Below, piece after piece: positions 6,283 through 12,061 of a stretch of DNA of 30,999 nt. A program made the position numbers and the translations under genes. The DNA lies in assembly GCA_046496625.1 (NCBI GenBank), contig JAWOGR010000105.1, forward strand, positions 1 to 30,999. Direction: 5' to 3'. The stretch is from Dehalococcoidia bacterium. Its GTDB lineage: Bacteria; Chloroflexota; Dehalococcoidia; GIF9; AB-539-J10. Numbering within the stretch: position 1 is the stretch's first letter; every line of letters begins with the position of its first letter. Below the pieces are notes generated by a model that did not search any database, had not been told where the DNA came from, and saw only the letters and a program-made list of their open reading frames with translations.

Positions 6283-6843
6283 TTAGCCGGCCTTTTCCTG
6301 GTACTCGCCGGTGCGGGTGTTGACTTTGATGACGTCGCCTGTGCTTATGAAGAGGGGAACCTGGACGGTTGCCCCCGTTTCCAGTTTGGCAGCCTTGGTG
6401 CCCGCTGTAGCCCTGTCCCCCTTGAATCCGGGATCTGTCTCCGTAACCCGAAGCTCCACGGAAATGGGCATCTCCACAGCCACCGTCTCTCCTTTGGCGG
6501 TCAGGACCTCCAGCACCATCCCCTCTTTGAGATAGGCTACGCCTTCTCCTATCTGGACAGCGGTCAAGACGAACTGGTCGTAGCTCTCGTTGTCCATGAA
6601 ATTGTAGAGGTCGCCGTCGTTGTAGAGGTACTGGACGGGACGGTGCTCCAGGAAAACCGGCGTGACTTTGTCCCCCGACTGGAGATTGCGCTCAGCGACG
6701 TTCCCCGTGCGGGCATCGCGGAGCCTCAGCTTAATCACAGGTTGCCTCTGCTGCATCTTGACATGCTGGTATTCGATGACTGTATAAATGCCGCCATCCA
6801 TCTCTATGGTGGCTCCCTTTCTCAGTTCTCCGGCATCGATCAT
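6283..6843 (-). CDS. efp: Elongation factor P with atypical loop (KMQQR)
   Basis: ELRKGATIEMDG, QYLYNDGDLYNFMDNESYDQF, TDPGFKGDRA, KLETGATVQVPLFI and KVNTRTGEY are EF-P motifs. Confidence 0.95.
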   Translation of the reverse strand: MIDAGELRKGATIEMDGGIYTVIEYQHVKMQQRQPVIKLRLRDARTGNVAERNLQSGDKVTPVFLEHRPVQYLYNDGDLYNFMDNESYDQFVLTAVQIGEGVAYLKEGMVLEVLTAKGETVAVEMPISVELRVTETDPGFKGDRATAGTKAAKLETGATVQVPLFISTGDVIKVNTRTGEYQEKAG

Positions 6844-6859
6844 GTGGTATCCTCCCTGT

Positions 6860-6965
6860 TTAGCATTCAGCGCTCGGTATTCAGTTGTCAGCCATCAGCC
6901 GGGTGCATCCGACCTCGTTGCCCGCCGTAATCCAAAGGTCGCTGAGCGCTGACAGCTACAGGCTA
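6860..6965. repeat. Inverted pair of heptamer arrays between the Xaa-Pro peptidase gene and efp
   Basis: TCAG-type units at 6860, 6867, 6874, 6881, 6888, 6895 and CTGA-type units at 6942, 6949, 6956, 6963; tcagcgctc (6867-6875) is the exact reverse complement of gagcgctga (6944-6952). Confidence 0.75.
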
Positions 6966-8068
6966 TGCTTTTGTGCTCTCGTGAGAACTCTCGCCTTTCC
7001 GTCCTCCAGGACTACGATGTCCTCGATCCTGACACCGCCTTCTCCCGGCAGGTAGATTCCGGGCTCAATGGTGAAGACCATGTCGTTCGAGAGAGTGCCG
7101 TTGGATGACGGGCCTACAGTGGGCAGTTCATGAACTGCCAGCCCGACGCCGTGTCCCAAACCGTGCCCGAAGTTGTCCCCGTAGCCGGCCTGTTCAATGA
7201 CGCTGCGGGCCAGTCGGTCCACCTCTGCACCCTCCATGCCCGACCGCACTCCCTCGATGGCAGCGATCTGCGCCCTGAGCACTATATCATAGATCTTCTG
7301 CATGTTGTCGCCTGCTCCACCCAGGAACAGGGTGCGGGTGAGATCGCTGCAGTAGCCGCCGATCCTTGCTCCCATATCGATGACCACCGGCTGGCCGGTG
7401 CCCAACTTCTTGTCTGTCGGGCGGGCGTGTGGTAGGGCCGCGTTCGGACCCGAGGCAACGATGATCTCGAAAGCTACTCCCTCACTCCCTCCCTGGCGAA
7501 GGAGCTTCTCTATCTCCCATGCCGCCTGCTTCTCCGTCATATCGGGGTGTATCAGCCCCTTCGCTTCTTCGAGGGCGGCATCTCCTAGCTGAACAGCCTT
7601 AGTGATGAGCGCAAGTTCTTCAGGCTCTTTGACGGCGCGCAGACCCTCCACCAGGCCGTTGGCAGGAACGAATTCCAGGCCGATCTGTGCGGTCTTCATT
7701 GCTTGATTGAGCTTTTGATGACTATCGAATGATACGAAGTCCGCTTCGAATCCCAGTTTCTGCAGTCCCAGGTCGGACACAAGCCCCGGAAACCAATCGC
7801 CCAACTCCCTTTTGGTCTGAACGATGGTGAAGTCCGGTGACTCCGCCCTGGCCTGCTCGACGTAGCGGAAGTCGGTGGTCATAACGGCCTCTTTCGCCGA
7901 GACGAGCAGCCATCCTGAGGAGCCGGTGAATCCTGAAATGTAGCGACGGTTTTCCGGCTGGCATACAAGGATCCCATCGAGTTCCCTGTCCGCCATGGAC
8001 GTTCGCAGCTTCTGCAGCCGGCTCATCCCCGTCTTCCCTTTCGGACTGCTAACCGTTGTTCCTTTCAT
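6956..8068 (-). CDS. M24-family Xaa-Pro aminopeptidase/dipeptidase (start at 8068 or 8026)
   Basis: Creatinase-like N-domain; IDMG, YCSDLTRT, GHGLGHGVGLAVHE, FTIEPGIY and GVRIED metal-ligand motifs; directly upstream of efp, a common pairing. Confidence 0.93.
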   Translation of the reverse strand: MKGTTVSSPKGKTGMSRLQKLRTSMADRELDGILVCQPENRRYISGFTGSSGWLLVSAKEAVMTTDFRYVEQARAESPDFTIVQTKRELGDWFPGLVSDLGLQKLGFEADFVSFDSHQKLNQAMKTAQIGLEFVPANGLVEGLRAVKEPEELALITKAVQLGDAALEEAKGLIHPDMTEKQAAWEIEKLLRQGGSEGVAFEIIVASGPNAALPHARPTDKKLGTGQPVVIDMGARIGGYCSDLTRTLFLGGAGDNMQKIYDIVLRAQIAAIEGVRSGMEGAEVDRLARSVIEQAGYGDNFGHGLGHGVGLAVHELPTVGPSSNGTLSNDMVFTIEPGIYLPGEGGVRIEDIVVLEDGKARVLTRAQKHSL

Positions 8069-8147
8069 CTTGCATATCCTTCCTTTTCTTGAGACAGACT
8101 GTGGGTGTGGCATATGCCACGCCCGTGCGAATCATACCACAGGCGGG

Positions 8148-8210
8148 TCACATCAGTATCACGTGGGTGATGCCGAAGCGGAGCATCACGTCCGACAATC
8201 TGAGGAAGAC
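8148..8210 (-). pseudogene. Relic second copy of an MgtE C-terminus directly behind the mgtE stop
   Basis: 8155-8190 matches 8227-8262 at 29/36 nt with a 72-nt offset; reads VMLRFGITHVIL versus VLLYFGIAHTIL. Confidence 0.6.
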
Positions 8211-9590
8211 TCAGGGTAACAGCCTTAGTATCGTGTGGGCGATGCCGAAATAGAGCAGCACGCCGAATATGTCCATTACCGTCGTTATGAAGGGTGCGGA
8301 CACAAGGGCCGGGTCGGTTCTGAGTCGACGGAAGAGAAAGGGTAAGGCGCCCCCTATCAGGGTTGCCATCACTGATATACCGAACAGGGTGGTGCTTACG
8401 ATTATCGCTACCCGCAGGTCACCGCTGAGCATACGCGACCAGGCGAGGGTAATGGCGCCGAGTACAACGCCCAGGATGGCACCTATTCCTACCTCGCGCA
8501 TGATGACAGATAGGGCTCTTCTCGGGTTCACCTCCCCGGTGGCCAGCCCGCGGATAACGACGGTGGCCGACTGTGCACCCACGTTCCCACCGGTGCCAAT
8601 CAGTAGAGGGATGAATGCGGCCAGTATGAGTATCTCCCCGAGCAAATCTCCTTCTCCGGCGATGATGGAGCCGGTGATCGTGTTGACCACGATAAGCAAT
8701 AGCAGCCAAGTGGCCCTCCGGCGTACTACGCTGAGGATGCGGCTGGCGAAGTAGCCTCGCTCGGTACCGGACACGGCACCGAAGCGGTAGATATCTTCGG
8801 TGGCCTCCCGCTCGACGATGTCGACTACGTCGTCGTAGGTGATGATACCGACGAGGCGCTGTTCCGCGTCGACCACGGGAATGGCCAGGAGTTCGTGCTC
8901 CCGGAGTTCCTTGGCCGCTTCCTCACGGTCGGTGTAGGTATATACGAATGGTGGCTCCGGAGTCATAATGTCGGACACCCTGGCGTCGGGATCGGCGATG
9001 ACCATGTCCTTGAGTGAGATGGTACCTATGAGGTGACGTCGGCGGTCCATTACGTAGCATTCGTAGACTGTTTCGCGGTTGATGGCGAGGCGTCTGACTC
9101 TATCCAGGGCCTGTGAGACGGTCATGTCGCCGTGCAGGTCGACGAAGAGGGGAGTCATCTCACGTCCGGCTGTCCCATCCTCGTAGCCCAGCAAGCGCAT
9201 GGTGAGGCGGCGCTGATCGGGTGAGAGTATCTGCAGGAGCCTTCGGGCTACCTTGGCGGGGACCTCGTCCAGCAACTCGGCTCTGTCGTCGGGAGGCATT
9301 GCTTCGAGAAGGCTTCTTGCTGCCTGGTCGCTGAAGGCCTCAAGAAGGAGGTTCTGCAGGGCGCCGTCCATCTCGTCAAAGACATCAACAGCGAGGTCCT
9401 TGGGGAGTAGGCGAAACGAGATGACAGCCTTGTCGGCCGGTGCGGCGGCCAGCAGATCCGCGATGCCGGAGGGGTCCAGAGTTGCCAGCCTCTCCCGCAA
9501 CGCTCTGTACTGCCTGTTATCCAGGAGTTCCCTGAAGGTGTCTTCGTTGAGGGTCTCCTTCTGTTGCCTGTCCTGAGTATCCTCGCTCAT
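8211..9590 (-). CDS. mgtE: Magnesium transporter MgtE
   Basis: N-domain, tandem CBS domains, GTGGNVGAQS and DPALVSAPFITTVMDIFG (conserved Mg-binding Asp) motifs. Confidence 0.96.
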   Translation of the reverse strand: MSEDTQDRQQKETLNEDTFRELLDNRQYRALRERLATLDPSGIADLLAAAPADKAVISFRLLPKDLAVDVFDEMDGALQNLLLEAFSDQAARSLLEAMPPDDRAELLDEVPAKVARRLLQILSPDQRRLTMRLLGYEDGTAGREMTPLFVDLHGDMTVSQALDRVRRLAINRETVYECYVMDRRRHLIGTISLKDMVIADPDARVSDIMTPEPPFVYTYTDREEAAKELREHELLAIPVVDAEQRLVGIITYDDVVDIVEREATEDIYRFGAVSGTERGYFASRILSVVRRRATWLLLLIVVNTITGSIIAGEGDLLGEILILAAFIPLLIGTGGNVGAQSATVVIRGLATGEVNPRRALSVIMREVGIGAILGVVLGAITLAWSRMLSGDLRVAIIVSTTLFGISVMATLIGGALPFLFRRLRTDPALVSAPFITTVMDIFGVLLYFGIAHTILRLLP

Positions 9591-9597
9591 GCTACTA

Positions 9598-9635
9598 CAG
9601 AAACAAAAGGCCCCACGTCCGGTGGGACGTGGGGC
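9598..9635 (-). terminator. Intrinsic terminator/attenuator hairpin just upstream of the mgtE start
   Basis: Minus strand GCCCCACGTCC-CACC-GGACGTGGGGC (perfect 11-bp stem) followed by CTTTTGTTTCTG. Confidence 0.85.
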
Positions 9636-9659
9636 GCATACGCCTTAATCAGTGGCGTT

Positions 9660-9743
9660 CTATGGCAAACCCCACCACCATCGAACGAAAACAGAAATCT
9701 GTTGCCGCTTATGATATGGATCCGGTGATCCCTTCGTTTCCAT
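9660..9743 (-). CDS. Putative mgtE leader peptide, 27 aa: METKGSPDPYHKRQQISVFVRWWWGLP
   Basis: ATG at 9743 lies about 18 nt after the predicted transcription start; TAG at 9660-9662 lies 25 nt before the terminator stem; PDP and WWW motifs. Confidence 0.7.
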   Translation of the reverse strand: METKGSPDPYHKRQQISVFVRWWWGLP

Positions 9744-9767
9744 TCTCAATATCTCGTTCCAGCTTCG

Positions 9768-9796
9768 ATTATAGCTCCCTCATACTATGATGTCAA
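9768..9796 (-). promoter_or_regulatory. Consensus sigma70 promoter driving the leader peptide and mgtE
   Basis: TTGACA (9796-9791), 17 nt spacer, TATAAT (9773-9768) on the minus strand. Confidence 0.9.
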
Positions 9797-9930
9797 TCGA
9801 GAAGAGCCCGTTTCTTGGCATCTGCCTGTTGTCTGTGCGGGTTGATATCAGCCCGTTCGATCATAGTGTCACCAGTTCCTTTCGGGCAGGGAGCGTGTCT
9901 GGAGCCTGGCCCGAGCAGCGAGCCCCGAGG

Positions 9931-9961
9931 GTTAACAATTTGTTAACATTTCTGATATAAC
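9931..9961 (+). promoter_or_regulatory. Putative OmpR-family binding site plus extended -10 for the two-component operon
   Basis: GTTAACA at 9931-9937 and 9942-9948 (11-nt period) over the -35 position; TGaTATAAC at 9953-9961. Confidence 0.6.
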
Positions 9962-9998
9962 ATGAAAGTGACAGCGAAGATACCCGGGAGGTCGGAAG

Positions 9999-10688
9999 TT
10001 GACTGAGAAGAAGGTTCTCGTAGTTGATGACGATGTTAAGACCGTGGATCTGATCAAGCTGTACCTGAACAGGGACGGCTACGAGGTTCTAACTGCTCAT
10101 GATGGGTTTGAGGCGCTGCGAGTAGCCCGGGATGGGAATCCCGACCTCATTGTGCTCGACCTTATGCTTCCCGACATGGATGGCCTGGAGGTCTGTCGCA
10201 CTCTCAGAGATGAGTGCGATGTGCCGATCATAATGCTTACCGCCAGGACAACCGACCAGGACAAGCTGACTGGACTCGACTCTGGAGCAGATGACTATGT
10301 GACGAAGCCGTTCAGTCCCAGGGAGCTGGCGGCCCGGATACGGGCGGTGCTGAGGCGTCTTCCGGGAGAACGCGGCCCGGTGGAAGTCACACATGGCGAG
10401 CTTACTATGAATTTCGTCAGACGGGAAGCCTGGCTTGCCGGAAAGCCGCTGACTCTGACGGATGTTGAGTTCAAGTTGCTGGGGGTTCTCTGCCGGGAGC
10501 CGGCCCGGGTCTTCAGCCGGGGAGACCTCATTGAAAGAGCTCTGGGCTATGACTTTGCGGGTTTCGATCGCACCATAGATGTTCATATACTTAACCTGCG
10601 CCGCAAGATCGAGCCATCGCCGAACCATCCCAGGTACATAAGGACGGTGTACGGAGCGGGCTACAAGTTCGTGGGAGATGAGGAGTGA
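9999..10688 (+). CDS. OmpR/PhoB-family response regulator
   Basis: [16 protein letters not shown] (phospho-Asp), DDYVTKPF, and winged-helix [27 protein letters not shown]. Confidence 0.96.
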
Positions 10689-12061
10689 CACACAGCCTGT
10701 GGTTCCGGTTGCTGATAGCTTTCGCGCTGGTTATCGTGGTGACCATCGGCACCGTCTACGGCTTCGTCAGCAGGGGCATCAGAGGAGAAATCGAACGTTA
10801 CGAGGAGATAAAGGAGCAGATCTACATCGTTGAGACACAAGAAGTGCTGGCCGGTCATTATCATGATTCCGGTAGCTGGGATGGTGTTCAGTATGTTGCC
10901 GGGAACATGTCGGCCGTGTCAGGGTCGCGTATCATATTGACTGATGTGGCCGGCGTGGTAATCGCTGACTCGAAGAATGAATTGCGAGCAGGGCAGCAGT
11001 TTCAGCCCGACTCAACTGACGCTCTTCGGGGCAACTACTTCGTGGTATTCTCCGAGGACTGGGAGGAGCCGATCACTCTCAGCCTCTATATGGAGCCGGG
11101 GCAGTTGGGCGGCGACGATGCTGGTTCGCCGCAGGTATTCGCTGCTGCCATTAACCGCTTTCTCATGCTGGGTGGGTTGCTGGCCGTTGCGATCGCTTTG
11201 TTGTTGACGTTTGTCTTATCGCGAAGGATGTCCTCGCCCATAGGTGTCCTTGCCACGGCTGCCAGGCGATTGGGAAGCGGGGAGTTGTCGCAGAGGGTGA
11301 GACTCAGGGAGAAGGGCGAGGTACAGGAACTCGCTCAAGCGTTTAACACGATGGCAGCTGATCTGGAGCACGCAGAGCAGTTGAGGCGCAACCTGGTTGC
11401 AGATGTTGCCCATGAACTGAGAACTCCTCTATCCAATATCCGGGGCTACCTGGAAGCTATCCATGATGGAGTGATGAAACCAGATGTGGCCACCATCCGT
11501 TCTCTGAATGAGGAGGCAGGTCTTCTGTCGCGGCTGGTCGATGAGCTGCAGGAGTTGAGCCTTGCCGAGGCCGGTGAGCTTAAGATGGTCTTCCAGGCGG
11601 AGGATGTCGCTGACCTTATCAGGCAGGCGGTGGCCTCCTGGCAGCCACAGGTTGCAGCTAAGGATATATCCCTTTCGACGGACCTACCCGAAAAGCTCCC
11701 GCCGGTGAAGATCGACTGGCAACGAGTAAGCCAGGTGCTGTATAATCTGCTCGAGAATGCTGTGTCCCATACGGGCAGGGGCGGCACCATCGTTGTCGCT
11801 GCTGCGAAGCAGGGCCATTGGGTGGAGGTTAGTGTATCTGACACGGGGGAAGGCATTCCCGCCGCTGATCTGCCCAATGTCTTTGAGCGTTTCTACCGGG
11901 TCGATAGGTCACGTGCCAGGGCTACCGGGGGCAGCGGCCTGGGACTCACCATCGCCAAGCGCATGGTGGAAGCTCACGGCGGGAGGATCGAGGCCCAGAG
12001 TAAGCTTGGAAGAGGCAGCCGCTTTTTTTTCACCGTCCCCATCTCGGGGGGACTGCTGTGA
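10685..12061 (+). CDS. Sensor histidine kinase (BaeS-like; two TM segments, HAMP, HisKA, HATPase)
   Basis: [10 protein letters not shown]-box, NLLENA N-box, DTGEGI and GGSGLGL G-boxes; GTGA overlap with the regulator. Confidence 0.95.

What the first reader, a model, noticed from the sequence alone, without database searches (positions are those of the whole stretch)
9590..9796. Candidate leader-peptide attenuator controlling mgtE
Seen on the minus strand, in order: TTGACA-N17-TATAAT; a 27-aa ORF METKGSPDPYHKRQQISVFVRWWWGLP* (9743-9660); a small hairpin ACGCC..GGCGT; a perfect 11-bp terminator with a U-rich tail; the mgtE ATG about 19 nt after the stem. The W-W-G codons contain GTGGGGT (9675-9669), which copies the terminator 3' arm and can pair with its 5' arm GCCCCAC (6 WC pairs plus 1 GU). 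Established: Salmonella/E. coli mgtA is controlled by the Pro-rich leader MgtL (DPEP/PDP) through translation speed, EF-P and Mg2+, with Rho-dependent termination. Inference: a ribosome slowed at S-P-D-P leaves GUGGGG free, the antiterminator forms and mgtE is transcribed. A ribosome at the stop or stalled on WWW masks it and causes termination. This would be an intrinsic-terminator Mg2+ sensor using a leader peptide rather than an M-box riboswitch. I do not know of one described in this lineage.
Basis: partly seen in the sequence, partly recalled or inferred. Interest (0 to 1): 0.88.

Follow-up and report, generated by a model that had tools for sequence, protein, structure and literature searches.

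The report
Leader-peptide attenuator upstream of mgtE
A conserved 27-codon mini-gene and a transcription terminator sit in front of a magnesium-channel gene in uncultured Dehalococcoidia, arranged so that a ribosome that finishes the mini-gene should switch the channel gene off and one that lags at an acidic/proline site should leave it on, much like the MgtL magnesium sensor of E. coli but built differently.

Summary
On the minus strand there is a perfect TTGACA-17-TATAAT promoter, a 27-codon ORF (9743..9660), an 11-bp terminator (9635..9610) and the mgtE start at 9590. No Rfam family matches, so it is not an M-box.

The whole unit is conserved upstream of mgtE in 36 distinct leaders from two clades of Dehalococcoidia MAGs. 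It was found in 30 of 31 sampled genomes of the genus and nowhere else in the order or class samples.

The ORF behaves as coding. Start and stop are conserved, all indels inside it are multiples of 3, and Pro9 is invariant while all four third bases occur. A D/E/P-rich window at residues 5-10 is present in 32 of 36 leaders.

The Trp/Gly codons pair with the terminator's 5' arm (98.5% paired, two compensatory changes). Ensemble folding gives antiterminator probability 0.91 for free RNA, 0.95 with a ribosome on Pro9 and 0.00 with a ribosome at the stop.

The second clade uses different sequences with the same logic, in classic trp style.

Where mgtE was deleted (at least two or three times), the leader ORF decays.

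Verdict: a real translation-coupled attenuator and a new variant of the MgtL idea (intrinsic terminator, MgtE, Chloroflexota). Mg2+ as the signal is inferred, not shown.

The parts
9768..9796 (-). Sigma-70-type promoter: TTGACA (9796..9791), 17-nt spacer, TATAAT (9773..9768). The transcription start is inferred near 9761.
   Evidence: 12 of 12 consensus matches. Both hexamers are invariant in 16 and then 37 orthologous leaders, while the spacer and the upstream DNA vary.
9752..9759 (-). 5' UTR strand GAACGAGA of helix P0. It pairs with codons 18-21 (9690..9683).
   Evidence: 94.2% of cells paired in 28 leaders, with three compensated pairs in one sequence (L041). It is the consensus helix of RNAalifold. 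Its role is unknown.
9660..9743 (-). Leader ORF of 27 codons plus TAG.
   Evidence: The start is conserved in 36 of 36 leaders, the stop interchanges between TAG and TAA, indels inside it are multiples of 3, and third-position entropy is about twice that of positions 1 and 2 in codons 2-11.
9714..9725 (-). Proposed slow-translation site, codons 7-10 (P-D-P-Y here; P-D-P-D in most relatives; K-E-P-D in the second clade). The invariant Pro9 codon is at 9719..9717.
   Evidence: Pro9 is present in 36 of 36 leaders with all four third bases, D/E8 in 34 of 36 and D10 in 35 of 36. At least 4 D/E/P residues in a 6-residue window occur in 32 of 36 leaders, against a mean of 6.6 in shuffles; the window's own leader has 3 of 6.
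9683..9690 (-). 3' strand of helix P0 (TTTCGTTC, codons 18-21).
9669..9679 (-). Antiterminator 5' strand inside the Trp-Trp-Trp-Gly codons (GGTGGTGGGGT; core GTGGGGT at 9675..9669).
   Evidence: It pairs with 9635..9629. 98.5% of cells are paired in 28 leaders, with two pairs compensated on both sides. Pair probabilities for the window are about 0.9 free, 0.95 with a ribosome on Pro9 and 0.00 with a ribosome at the stop.
9640..9658 (-). Small hairpin between the stop codon and the terminator (ACGCC...GGCGT). It lies inside the antiterminator loop.
   Evidence: Relatives have a longer 8+3-bp hairpin enclosing the stop codon, 85% paired, with two pairs changed on both sides.
9600..9635 (-). Intrinsic terminator: 5' arm 9635..9625, loop 9624..9621, 3' arm 9620..9610, T-rich tail 9609..9600.
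   Evidence: 99% paired in 28 leaders, with compensatory A-U to G-C and G-C to A-U changes. The second clade shows three pairs changed on both sides.
8211..9590 (-). mgtE (459 aa), the regulated gene. It has no Shine-Dalgarno sequence, and its ATG lies 19 nt after the terminator stem.
   Evidence: Pfam MgtE_N, CBS and MgtE domains. Orthologues at 67-86% identity all carry the leader.
6283..8026 (-). pepP (Xaa-Pro aminopeptidase, about 8026..6956) and efp (6843..6283), co-oriented downstream and possibly co-transcribed.
   Evidence: Pfam. Synteny holds across the main clade only. No terminator-like site was found between mgtE and pepP. In genomes that lost mgtE the leader sits directly upstream of pepP.

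Best explanation
This is a translation-coupled transcription attenuator for the Mg2+ channel gene mgtE, and probably for pepP-efp behind it in this genus. A strong, near-constitutive promoter makes a roughly 165-nt leader. A ribosome translates a 27-codon ORF in that leader. The G-rich Trp/Gly codons near the ORF's end (GUGGGGU) are the only good partner for the 5' arm of the terminator. If no ribosome covers them when the 5' arm emerges, the antiterminator forms and RNA polymerase reads into mgtE. If the ribosome has kept pace and sits on the last codons or the stop, those codons are masked, the 11-bp terminator forms and transcription ends. The timing element is an acidic/proline site at residues 7-10, with an invariant Pro9 in [D/E]-P-D. 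It lies very near the N-terminus, the context in which E. coli MgtL (M-EPDP...) translates poorly or aborts when Mg2+ is low. The inferred outcome is that low cytoplasmic Mg2+, or anything else that slows or aborts translation at this site, increases mgtE. What is shown: the anatomy, conservation, coding signature, complementarity, covariation and ribosome-mask thermodynamics. What is inferred: that the ORF is translated in vivo, that the D/E-P-D site is slow, and that Mg2+ is the physiological signal.
For: The anatomy is confirmed. No Rfam family matches at gathering threshold or at E<=10, so neither the M-box nor the enterobacterial Mg sensor is present. The unit is conserved in 36 distinct leaders and is always single-copy. 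Coding signature: ATG in 36 of 36; TAG/TAA interchange; in-frame 3-nt indels inside the ORF against 1-2-nt indels outside it; Pro9 invariant with third-position entropy of 1.79 bits; position-3 entropy of 11.5 against 5.4 and 4.9 for positions 1 and 2 in codons 2-11, summed by hand from the per-codon table. The terminator shows covariation. The antiterminator is 98.5% paired, with compensatory A:U in L014 and U:A in L038. Ensemble folds of the pre-terminator transcript give a median antiterminator probability of 0.91 free, 0.95 with a ribosome on Pro9 and 0.00 with a ribosome at the stop, across 28 leaders; the window gives 0.91, 0.95 and 0.00. The second clade uses different sequences. GYGG:CCRC shows three-way covariation with the terminator 3' arm. 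AUGGG:CCCAU forms at 0.72-0.86 only when a ribosome sits on E-P-D, against at most 0.04 free and at most 0.06 at the stop, in 5 of 7 leaders. A D/E/P-rich window of at least 4 in 6 residues starting at residue 5 occurs in 32 of 36 leaders against a shuffled mean of 6.6. That is the operational definition used for MgtL-like ribosome-destabilising sequences, and N-terminal position is required for their effect (bioRxiv 10.1101/2021.02.02.429294). uORF translation is inversely related to mgtA and corA expression in E. coli (PMC11552253). After loss of mgtE (2-3 events on the pepP tree) the leader ORF loses its start, its stop or the motif in 9 of 13 genomes. All 16 sampled mgtE-bearing genomes of the genus keep an intact ORF, 15 of them with the full [D/E]-P-D (one has G-P-D, and the window has P-D-P-Y).
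Against: There is no expression, Ribo-seq or Term-seq data. The public runs holding this DNA are contig-only and told nothing about transcripts. The leader ORF has no convincing Shine-Dalgarno sequence: only GAGA or AAGG 1-3 nt before the ATG. The CC of Pro9 and the flanking Asp codons can also pair with the Trp codons (helix 1:2, 94% paired; 100% in the second clade). RNA-level constraint therefore partly confounds the peptide-level reading of the motif. Only one Pro is invariant and there is no Pro-Pro, so EF-P dependence is doubtful. The window's own motif is weakened to PDPY, with 3 of 6 D/E/P. In the main clade thermodynamics predicts antitermination even without translation, so stalling is not strictly required there and control could lie at initiation. 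Promoter and terminator persist in genomes without mgtE, so the element may serve pepP-efp too. MgtE channels are also gated directly by Mg2+ (my own knowledge, not tested here), so transcriptional Mg2+ control is not obligatory.
Confidence: 0.6

Rival explanations
1. The attenuator is the same, but the sensed variable is not Mg2+. Instead it is general capacity to translate Pro/Asp codons: prolyl- or aspartyl-tRNA supply, EF-P or ABCF activity, or hyperosmotic or proline limitation. Its main purpose would be to tune pepP-efp, with mgtE as a passenger.
For: mgtE-pepP-efp synteny holds across the genus. The leader, promoter and terminator are retained directly upstream of pepP-efp after mgtE deletion, and four such genomes keep an intact D-P-D ORF. 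MgtL in Salmonella also responds to proline codons and acidic residues.
Against: The second clade has the leader on mgtE with no pepP or efp downstream. After mgtE loss the ORF decays in 9 of 13 genomes even though efp is still downstream. There is no Pro-Pro motif, and no run of one codon as in amino-acid attenuators.
Confidence: 0.2
2. The leader is a ligand- or ion-binding structured RNA (a new riboswitch with a terminator expression platform) and the ORF is incidental.
For: The leader is strongly structured (z = -4.1). The 3' half of the ORF shows no codon periodicity and near-invariant nucleotides, including third positions. mgtE is a classic riboswitch target (M-box), and another mgtE riboswitch candidate exists in Thioalkalivibrio (PMC11109978).
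Against: No Rfam match. Start and stop are conserved at homologous positions in 36 of 36 leaders, indels are in frame, and there is three-fold periodicity with synonymous change in codons 2-11, which lie in no supported helix. The ORF decays once mgtE is lost, while the RNA helices persist. No multi-stem junction with covariation was found.
Confidence: 0.05
3. The ORF encodes a free-standing small protein, for example a partner or regulator of MgtE like MgtS or MgtR for MgtA and MgtC. The hairpin is then just its terminator, with leaky read-through into mgtE.
For: The peptide sequence is conserved across two clades. It has a hydrophobic, Trp-rich C-terminal half. Small proteins do regulate Mg2+ transporters in enterobacteria (my own knowledge).
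Against: The hydrophobic stretch is about 12 residues, too short for a membrane span, and it differs between clades. mgtE has no promoter of its own: only 19 nt separate the terminator from the ATG. The antiterminator complementarity and its compensatory changes would be unexplained. The C-terminal half evolves under RNA constraint, not codon constraint.
Confidence: 0.06
4. The nascent peptide is a ligand-dependent arrest peptide (TnaC or SpeFL style). It would sense a small molecule in the exit tunnel and stall at or near the stop.
For: The amino-acid sequence is conserved, including M-E-T-K-S and V-[RQ]-W. Many copies end in Pro-stop.
Against: The C-terminus is not conserved: P, L, Y, C, G, S and E all occur before the stop. 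A ribosome held at the stop would mask the antiterminator and give constitutive termination. There are only 27 residues, with the conserved part at the N-terminus.
Confidence: 0.04

Closest known systems
MgtL leader of mgtA (E. coli and Salmonella); related CorL-corA and MgtM/MgtP-mgtCBR leaders
   Same: A short uORF precedes a Mg2+ transporter gene. It has an acidic/proline motif within the first ~10 residues (E. coli M-EPDP...; here S-PDPD or K-EPD), followed by a basic cluster. Efficient uORF translation gives repression and impaired elongation gives expression, through alternative RNA helices that overlap the uORF.
   Different: Termination here is by an intrinsic terminator, not Rho. The transporter is the MgtE channel, not the P-type ATPase MgtA or CorA. 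The phylum is Chloroflexota. There is no detectable sequence or Rfam relationship. The ORF is longer (26-30 codons against 17; the figure of 17 is from my own memory). The motif is preceded by 5-6 residues. Nothing here has been tested experimentally.
Classical amino-acid operon attenuators (trp, his, leu, pheA; Corynebacterium ilvB uORF)
   Same: Promoter, then leader ORF, then mutually exclusive antiterminator and intrinsic terminator. In the second clade there is a full 1:2 / 2:3 / 3:4 arrangement, in which only a ribosome parked on segment 1 frees segment 2. The ilvB uORF is described in the same terms in PMC11109978.
   Different: There is no run of codons for an end-product amino acid, and the regulated gene is an ion channel. 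The Trp codons serve here as RNA (the antiterminator strand), not as sensing codons. In the main clade the 1:2 helix is thermodynamically disfavoured, so untranslated RNA is predicted to read through.
M-box (ykoK) riboswitch, the known regulator of mgtE in Bacillus
   Same: It has the same target gene family and the same output (an intrinsic terminator in the 5' leader), and presumably the same physiological purpose.
   Different: There is no match to the M-box covariance model in the window or in 12 related loci. Sensing here would go through the ribosome and a peptide rather than through direct Mg2+ binding by RNA.

Membership tests
Leader-peptide transcription attenuator with intrinsic terminator | Short ORF in the 5' leader with conserved start and stop and a coding-type substitution pattern | tested here: met
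   36 of 36 starts conserved, TAG/TAA interchange, in-frame indels, third-position excess in codons 2-11.
Leader-peptide transcription attenuator with intrinsic terminator | Intrinsic terminator between the leader ORF and the structural gene | tested here: met
   11-bp stem plus T tract. 99% paired, with compensatory changes.
Leader-peptide transcription attenuator with intrinsic terminator | Antiterminator mutually exclusive with the terminator, and occluded by a ribosome at the end of the ORF | tested here: met
   98.5% paired, with 2 compensatory pairs. Probability 0.91/0.95/0.00 under no mask, Pro9 mask and stop mask. Three-way covariation in the second clade.
Leader-peptide transcription attenuator with intrinsic terminator | Tandem regulatory codons for the amino acid made by the operon | tested here: not met
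   There is no cognate-codon run. The gene is mgtE. The Trp codons vary (W to G, R or V) while keeping the G-rich RNA.
Leader-peptide transcription attenuator with intrinsic terminator | Read-through depends on translation of the leader in vivo or in vitro | not testable with these tools
   The public runs are contigs only.
MgtL-type Mg2+-sensing leader peptide | D/E/P-rich motif close to the N-terminus of the uORF product | tested here: met
   At least 4 of 6 D/E/P residues starting at residue 5 in 32 of 36 leaders; the window has 3 of 6.
MgtL-type Mg2+-sensing leader peptide | Lies upstream of a Mg2+ transporter gene | tested here: met
   MgtE_N, CBS and MgtE domains. All mgtE orthologues at 67% identity or more whose upstream region is on the contig carry the leader.
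MgtL-type Mg2+-sensing leader peptide | Rho-dependent termination governed by stem-loops A/B versus C | tested here: not met
   An intrinsic terminator is present instead. Rho dependence itself is not testable here.
MgtL-type Mg2+-sensing leader peptide | Sequence or structure homology to the enterobacterial mgtA leader | tested here: not met
   No Rfam hit of any kind at E<=10 in 9500-10050.
MgtL-type Mg2+-sensing leader peptide | uORF translation and downstream expression respond to Mg2+ | not testable with these tools
   This needs bench assays.
M-box riboswitch (RF00380) | Match to the M-box covariance model | tested here: not met
   No match in the window at gathering threshold or at E<=10, nor in 12 related loci.

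The most novel reading that the evidence does not exclude
A D/E-P-D leader peptide has evolved independently in Chloroflexota as a ribosome-based Mg2+ sensor. That would show that Mg2+-sensitive translation of N-terminal acidic/proline sequences is a general bacterial sensing principle rather than an enterobacterial oddity. In this genus the same sensor would co-regulate Mg2+ import with EF-P and a Xaa-Pro peptidase (mgtE-pepP-efp) as one ribosome-health operon.
Probability: 0.3. Interest if true: 0.8.

Novelty: new variant of a known kind. Interest (0 to 1): 0.62.

Why it matters
Known Mg2+-responsive control of mgtE is by the M-box riboswitch. Known peptide-based Mg2+ sensing (MgtL, CorL) is confined to enterobacteria and works through Rho. 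A leader peptide with the same kind of N-terminal acidic/proline motif, wired to an intrinsic terminator in front of MgtE in a distant phylum, would be independent evolutionary support for the idea that the ribosome itself is the Mg2+ sensor.

It would also give a compact, Rho-independent system of about 165 nt. That system can be tested in purified transcription-translation reactions.

The two clades give two natural wirings of the same logic: default-on and trp-like default-off. The repeated loss of mgtE gives a natural experiment on which parts depend on mgtE.

Tried and rejected
1. M-box or any other Rfam family: no match in the window (gathering threshold, and E<=10 on 9500-10050) or in 12 related loci.
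2. Extra copies of the leader elsewhere in the genome: none. The covariance model R1 finds one copy per genome.
3. A trp-like 1:2 helix (P-D-P-D-H codons with R-W-W-W codons) in the main clade: complementary (94% paired) but with no compensatory change, and an ensemble probability near 0. I keep it only for the second clade, where it is 0.82-0.95. An alternative register (S-S-P codons with Trp codons) is no better.
4. Trp-codon sensing: rejected. A ribosome on WWW masks the antiterminator, only one W is conserved across clades, and the gene is not a trp gene.
5. Transcript evidence from public runs: the six runs that hold the DNA are contigs of unknown library type. They show only strain variants, with no ends or depth steps.
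6. Shine-Dalgarno assessment for the leader ORF: inconclusive.
7. Literature: no paper describes a leader-peptide attenuator for mgtE. The 'mgtE motif' of PMC11109978 is a Thioalkalivibrio riboswitch candidate, and the M. tuberculosis case is M-box based.
8. Wider taxonomic search with R1: no full-length hit in 47 other genera of the order or 110 genera of the class that were sampled. The only matches there were two short terminator-only ones, in genera g20 and g86. More distant mgtE orthologues (60-64% identity) lack the leader.
Full report
OBSERVATION. All coordinates are on the minus strand.
- The window carries TTGACA (9796..9791), a 17-nt spacer and TATAAT (9773..9768). This is a 12 of 12 match and the only promoter-like site in 8000-10800.
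- A 27-codon ORF runs from ATG 9743 to TAG 9662..9660.
- A small hairpin lies at 9658..9640.
- An 11-bp terminator with 9 G-C pairs and a loop of 4 lies at 9635..9610, followed by a T-rich tail.
- The ATG of a 459-aa MgtE (Pfam MgtE_N, CBS, MgtE) is at 9590, 19 nt after the stem.
- GTGGGGT at 9675..9669 is complementary to GCCCCAC at 9635..9629.
- The leader folds 4.1 sd better than shuffles.
- No Rfam family matches the window at gathering score, and none matches 9500-10050 even at E<=10 apart from a meaningless lncRNA hit on the other strand. It is therefore neither an M-box nor the enterobacterial Mg sensor.

WHO HAS IT.
- The window lies in a 1.13-Mb, 79%-complete MAG. By the titles of its relatives it is an uncultured member of Dehalococcoidia/Dehalococcoidales.
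- Extracting the region upstream of mgtE orthologues gave 37 distinct leader regions, 36 of them with a recognisable ORF.
- Promoter hexamers, ORF and terminator are conserved. The DNA upstream of the -35 and the promoter spacer are not.
- There are two clades. The main clade is the window's genus. Its peptide consensus is M-E-T/I-K-S-S-P-D-P-D-H-K-R-R-Q-I-A-I-F-V-R-W-W-W-G-L-P/L.
- The second clade (loci L054-L062, with L052 intermediate) has mgtE at 67-71% identity. Its peptide is M-E/K-T-K-S-D-K/R-E-P-D-K-R ... V-Q-W-V-M-P-x-V-A-L.
- A covariance model of ORF plus terminator (R1) finds one copy in 30 of 31 sampled genomes of the genus. It finds no full-length copy in 47 other genera of the order or 110 genera of the class, and one copy in each second-clade genome.
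- mgtE orthologues at 60-64% identity have neither this leader nor an M-box.

IS THE ORF TRANSLATED? Comparative evidence says yes.
- The ATG is present in 36 of 36 leaders.
- The stop is at the homologous place and switches between TAG and TAA.
- The indels inside the ORF are multiples of three: one Trp codon lost in four leaders, one codon gained in L031, one lost in L034, and larger in-frame differences between clades. Indels after the stop are 1 or 2 nt.
- Pro9 is invariant in 36 of 36 leaders, while its third base has 1.79 bits of entropy, so all four bases occur. D/E8 is present in 34 of 36 and D10 in 35 of 36.
- Over codons 2-11 the summed entropy at position 3 is about 11.5, against 5.4 and 4.9 at positions 1 and 2. 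I summed these by hand from the per-codon table.
- Over codons 19-30 there is no such periodicity and third positions are nearly frozen. The 5' half therefore evolves as a coding sequence and the 3' half as structured RNA.
- Caveat: the CC of Pro9 and parts of the Asp codons can also pair with the Trp codons. RNA constraint therefore partly confounds the peptide reading of the motif. The D-to-E replacements and the conserved, unpaired M-E-T-K-S codons argue for selection on the peptide as well.

THE SWITCH, MAIN CLADE.
- On 28 leaders (alignment A2) the terminator is 99% paired, with compensated pairs.
- The antiterminator GUGGGGC:GCCCCAC is 98.5% paired. Two pairs are changed on both sides.
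- In L014 an A in the Gly/Asp codon is matched by a U in the terminator arm, and that U still pairs as G-U in the terminator. In L038 a U:A pair forms in the antiterminator at the cost of a mismatch in the terminator.
- Sliding the partner strand by 1-3 columns drops pairing to 32-53%.
- I folded each transcript up to the terminator loop, that is, before the 3' arm exists. The median probability of the antiterminator core is 0.91 for free RNA, 0.95 with 27 nt masked around a P-site Pro9, and 0.00 with the mask on the last sense codon and stop. The window's own values are 0.91, 0.95 and 0.00.
- A trp-like 1:2 helix (P-D-P-D-H codons with R-W-W-W codons) is complementary but never favoured here.
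- A different helix is favoured instead. P0 joins the 5' UTR (GAACGAGA, 9759..9752) to codons 18-21 (9690..9683). It is 94% paired, with three compensated pairs in L041.
- P0's role is open. It could shut off re-initiation once the first ribosome has left the start.

THE SWITCH, SECOND CLADE.
- The sequences differ but the logic recurs.
- A GYGG element 3' of the stop pairs with CCRC in the terminator 5' arm. The Y/R pair covaries (C-G three times, U-A three times, U-G once), and the same R covaries with the terminator 3' arm. This three-way pattern is diagnostic of mutually exclusive helices.
- AUGGG, which overlaps the invariant Trp codon, pairs either with ACCCG (the E-P-D codons) or with CCCAU, the end of the terminator 5' arm plus its oddly invariant loop.
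- In 5 of 7 leaders AUGGG:CCCAU has a probability of at most 0.04 in free RNA, 0.72-0.86 when a ribosome sits on E-P-D, and at most 0.06 when it sits at the stop. The 1:2 helix holds at 0.82-0.95 in free RNA.
- This is the classical three-state trp design, and its stall site is exactly the invariant [D/E]-P-D.
- In both clades, slow passage of that site predicts ON and completed translation predicts OFF. They differ only in the predicted state of untranslated RNA.

WHAT IS SENSED. This part is inference.
- The regulated gene is a Mg2+ channel.
- The peptide has at least 4 D/E/P residues in a 6-residue window starting at residue 5 in 32 of 36 leaders, against a shuffled mean of 6.6 and a maximum of 14.
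- That is the operational definition used for intrinsic-ribosome-destabilising sequences.
- E. coli MgtL carries EPDP right after its Met. Its translation aborts there more often when Mg2+ is low, which raises mgtA. The effect needs an almost empty exit tunnel, so an N-terminal position matters, and constructs with 5 residues inserted before the motif were still used to measure the effect (bioRxiv 10.1101/2021.02.02.429294, citing Chadani 2017).
- For mgtL and corL, uORF translation and transporter expression are inversely related (PMC11552253).
- The window's own copy has P-D-P-Y (3 of 6), a slightly weakened motif.

A NATURAL EXPERIMENT.
- Thirteen sampled genomes of the genus lack mgtE but keep the promoter, leader and terminator. 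Behind these sits a roughly 14-codon remnant of the mgtE 5' end, seen in the four loci I read through, and then pepP-efp.
- A pepP tree needs 2-3 separate losses.
- In the two recent losses the leader ORF is intact with D-P-D.
- In the older ten-genome clade it has lost its start (ATG to AAG), gained a premature stop, lost its stop, or lost the motif. In total 9 of 13 are altered.
- By contrast, all 16 mgtE-bearing genomes in the same sample keep an intact ORF. Fifteen have the full [D/E]-P-D; one has G-P-D and the window has P-D-P-Y.
- Relatives are not independent, so this is qualitative. It indicates that selection on the peptide is tied to mgtE rather than to efp.
- It also shows that in this genus the leader probably heads an mgtE-pepP-efp transcript. 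No terminator-like site lies between mgtE and pepP, although an extended -10-like TGGTATGAT at 8139..8131 could give pepP its own promoter.
- The second clade has no pepP-efp behind mgtE.

COMPARISON AND NOVELTY.
- It works like MgtL-mgtA and CorL-corA: a uORF with an N-terminal acidic/proline motif, with transporter expression inverse to uORF translation.
- It works like trp-type attenuators in having an intrinsic terminator and an antiterminator.
- It is not a member of the mgtA leader family. There is no sequence or structure match, it uses an intrinsic terminator rather than Rho, and it controls MgtE rather than MgtA.
- It lacks the cognate-codon run of amino-acid attenuators, and it is not an M-box.
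- I found no description of such an element.
- I rate it a new variant of a known kind. It is well supported as an attenuator (about 0.85) and moderately supported as a Mg2+ sensor (about 0.55-0.6).

LIMITS.
- There is no transcript or ribosome data.
- The Shine-Dalgarno sequence of the leader ORF is weak or absent.
- Covariation is limited because the sequences are close.
- The ribosome-mask folds are equilibrium calculations, not kinetics.

Noticed in passing
loci L108-L124 (genomes G003, G004, G014, G015, G019, G021, G045, G072, G074, G076, G082, G121, G128, G147): mgtE has been deleted at least 2-3 times within the genus. The leader and terminator stay directly upstream of pepP-efp, with about 14 codons of the mgtE 5' end left in the four loci I read through. 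The leader ORF then decays through start loss, premature stop, stop loss or motif loss. Two altered copies have acquired Pro-Pro (S-P-P-A and H-P-P-T).
   Followed up: partly
window 9752-9759 with 9683-9690 (minus strand): A conserved helix P0 joins the 5' UTR to codons 18-21 of the leader ORF. It is 94% paired, with three compensated pairs in L041. Its function is unknown; it may block re-initiation.
   Followed up: partly
window 9591-9609 (minus strand): mgtE has no Shine-Dalgarno sequence. Its ATG follows the terminator's T tract by about 9 nt. In the second clade a GGAAGAGG-type Shine-Dalgarno sequence is present, and the spacer is about 35 nt.
   Followed up: no
window 8027-8210 (minus strand): The mgtE-pepP spacer holds a 7-bp hairpin (8189..8167) with no T tract, a 14-nt palindrome GTGGCATATGCCAC (8120..8107) and an extended -10-like TGGTATGAT (8139..8131). 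Whether pepP-efp have their own promoter is open.
   Followed up: no
loci L065-L069, L073, L093: mgtE orthologues at 60-64% identity have neither this leader nor an M-box. L067 has a different G+C-rich hairpin with a T tract about 45 nt before its mgtE, which may be another unrelated leader.
   Followed up: no
window 9999-12061 (plus strand): A response regulator and histidine kinase pair is transcribed divergently from the leader promoter, and this arrangement is conserved in much of the main clade. The leader promoter is a perfect consensus, so any input from this pair is not obvious.
   Followed up: no
window 9703-9739: Public-run contigs (X2, X4) from a 95-96% identical strain carry a cluster of substitutions inside the leader ORF, including in codon 10 (the Tyr that replaces the consensus Asp here). 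I did not reconstruct the variant peptide.
   Followed up: no
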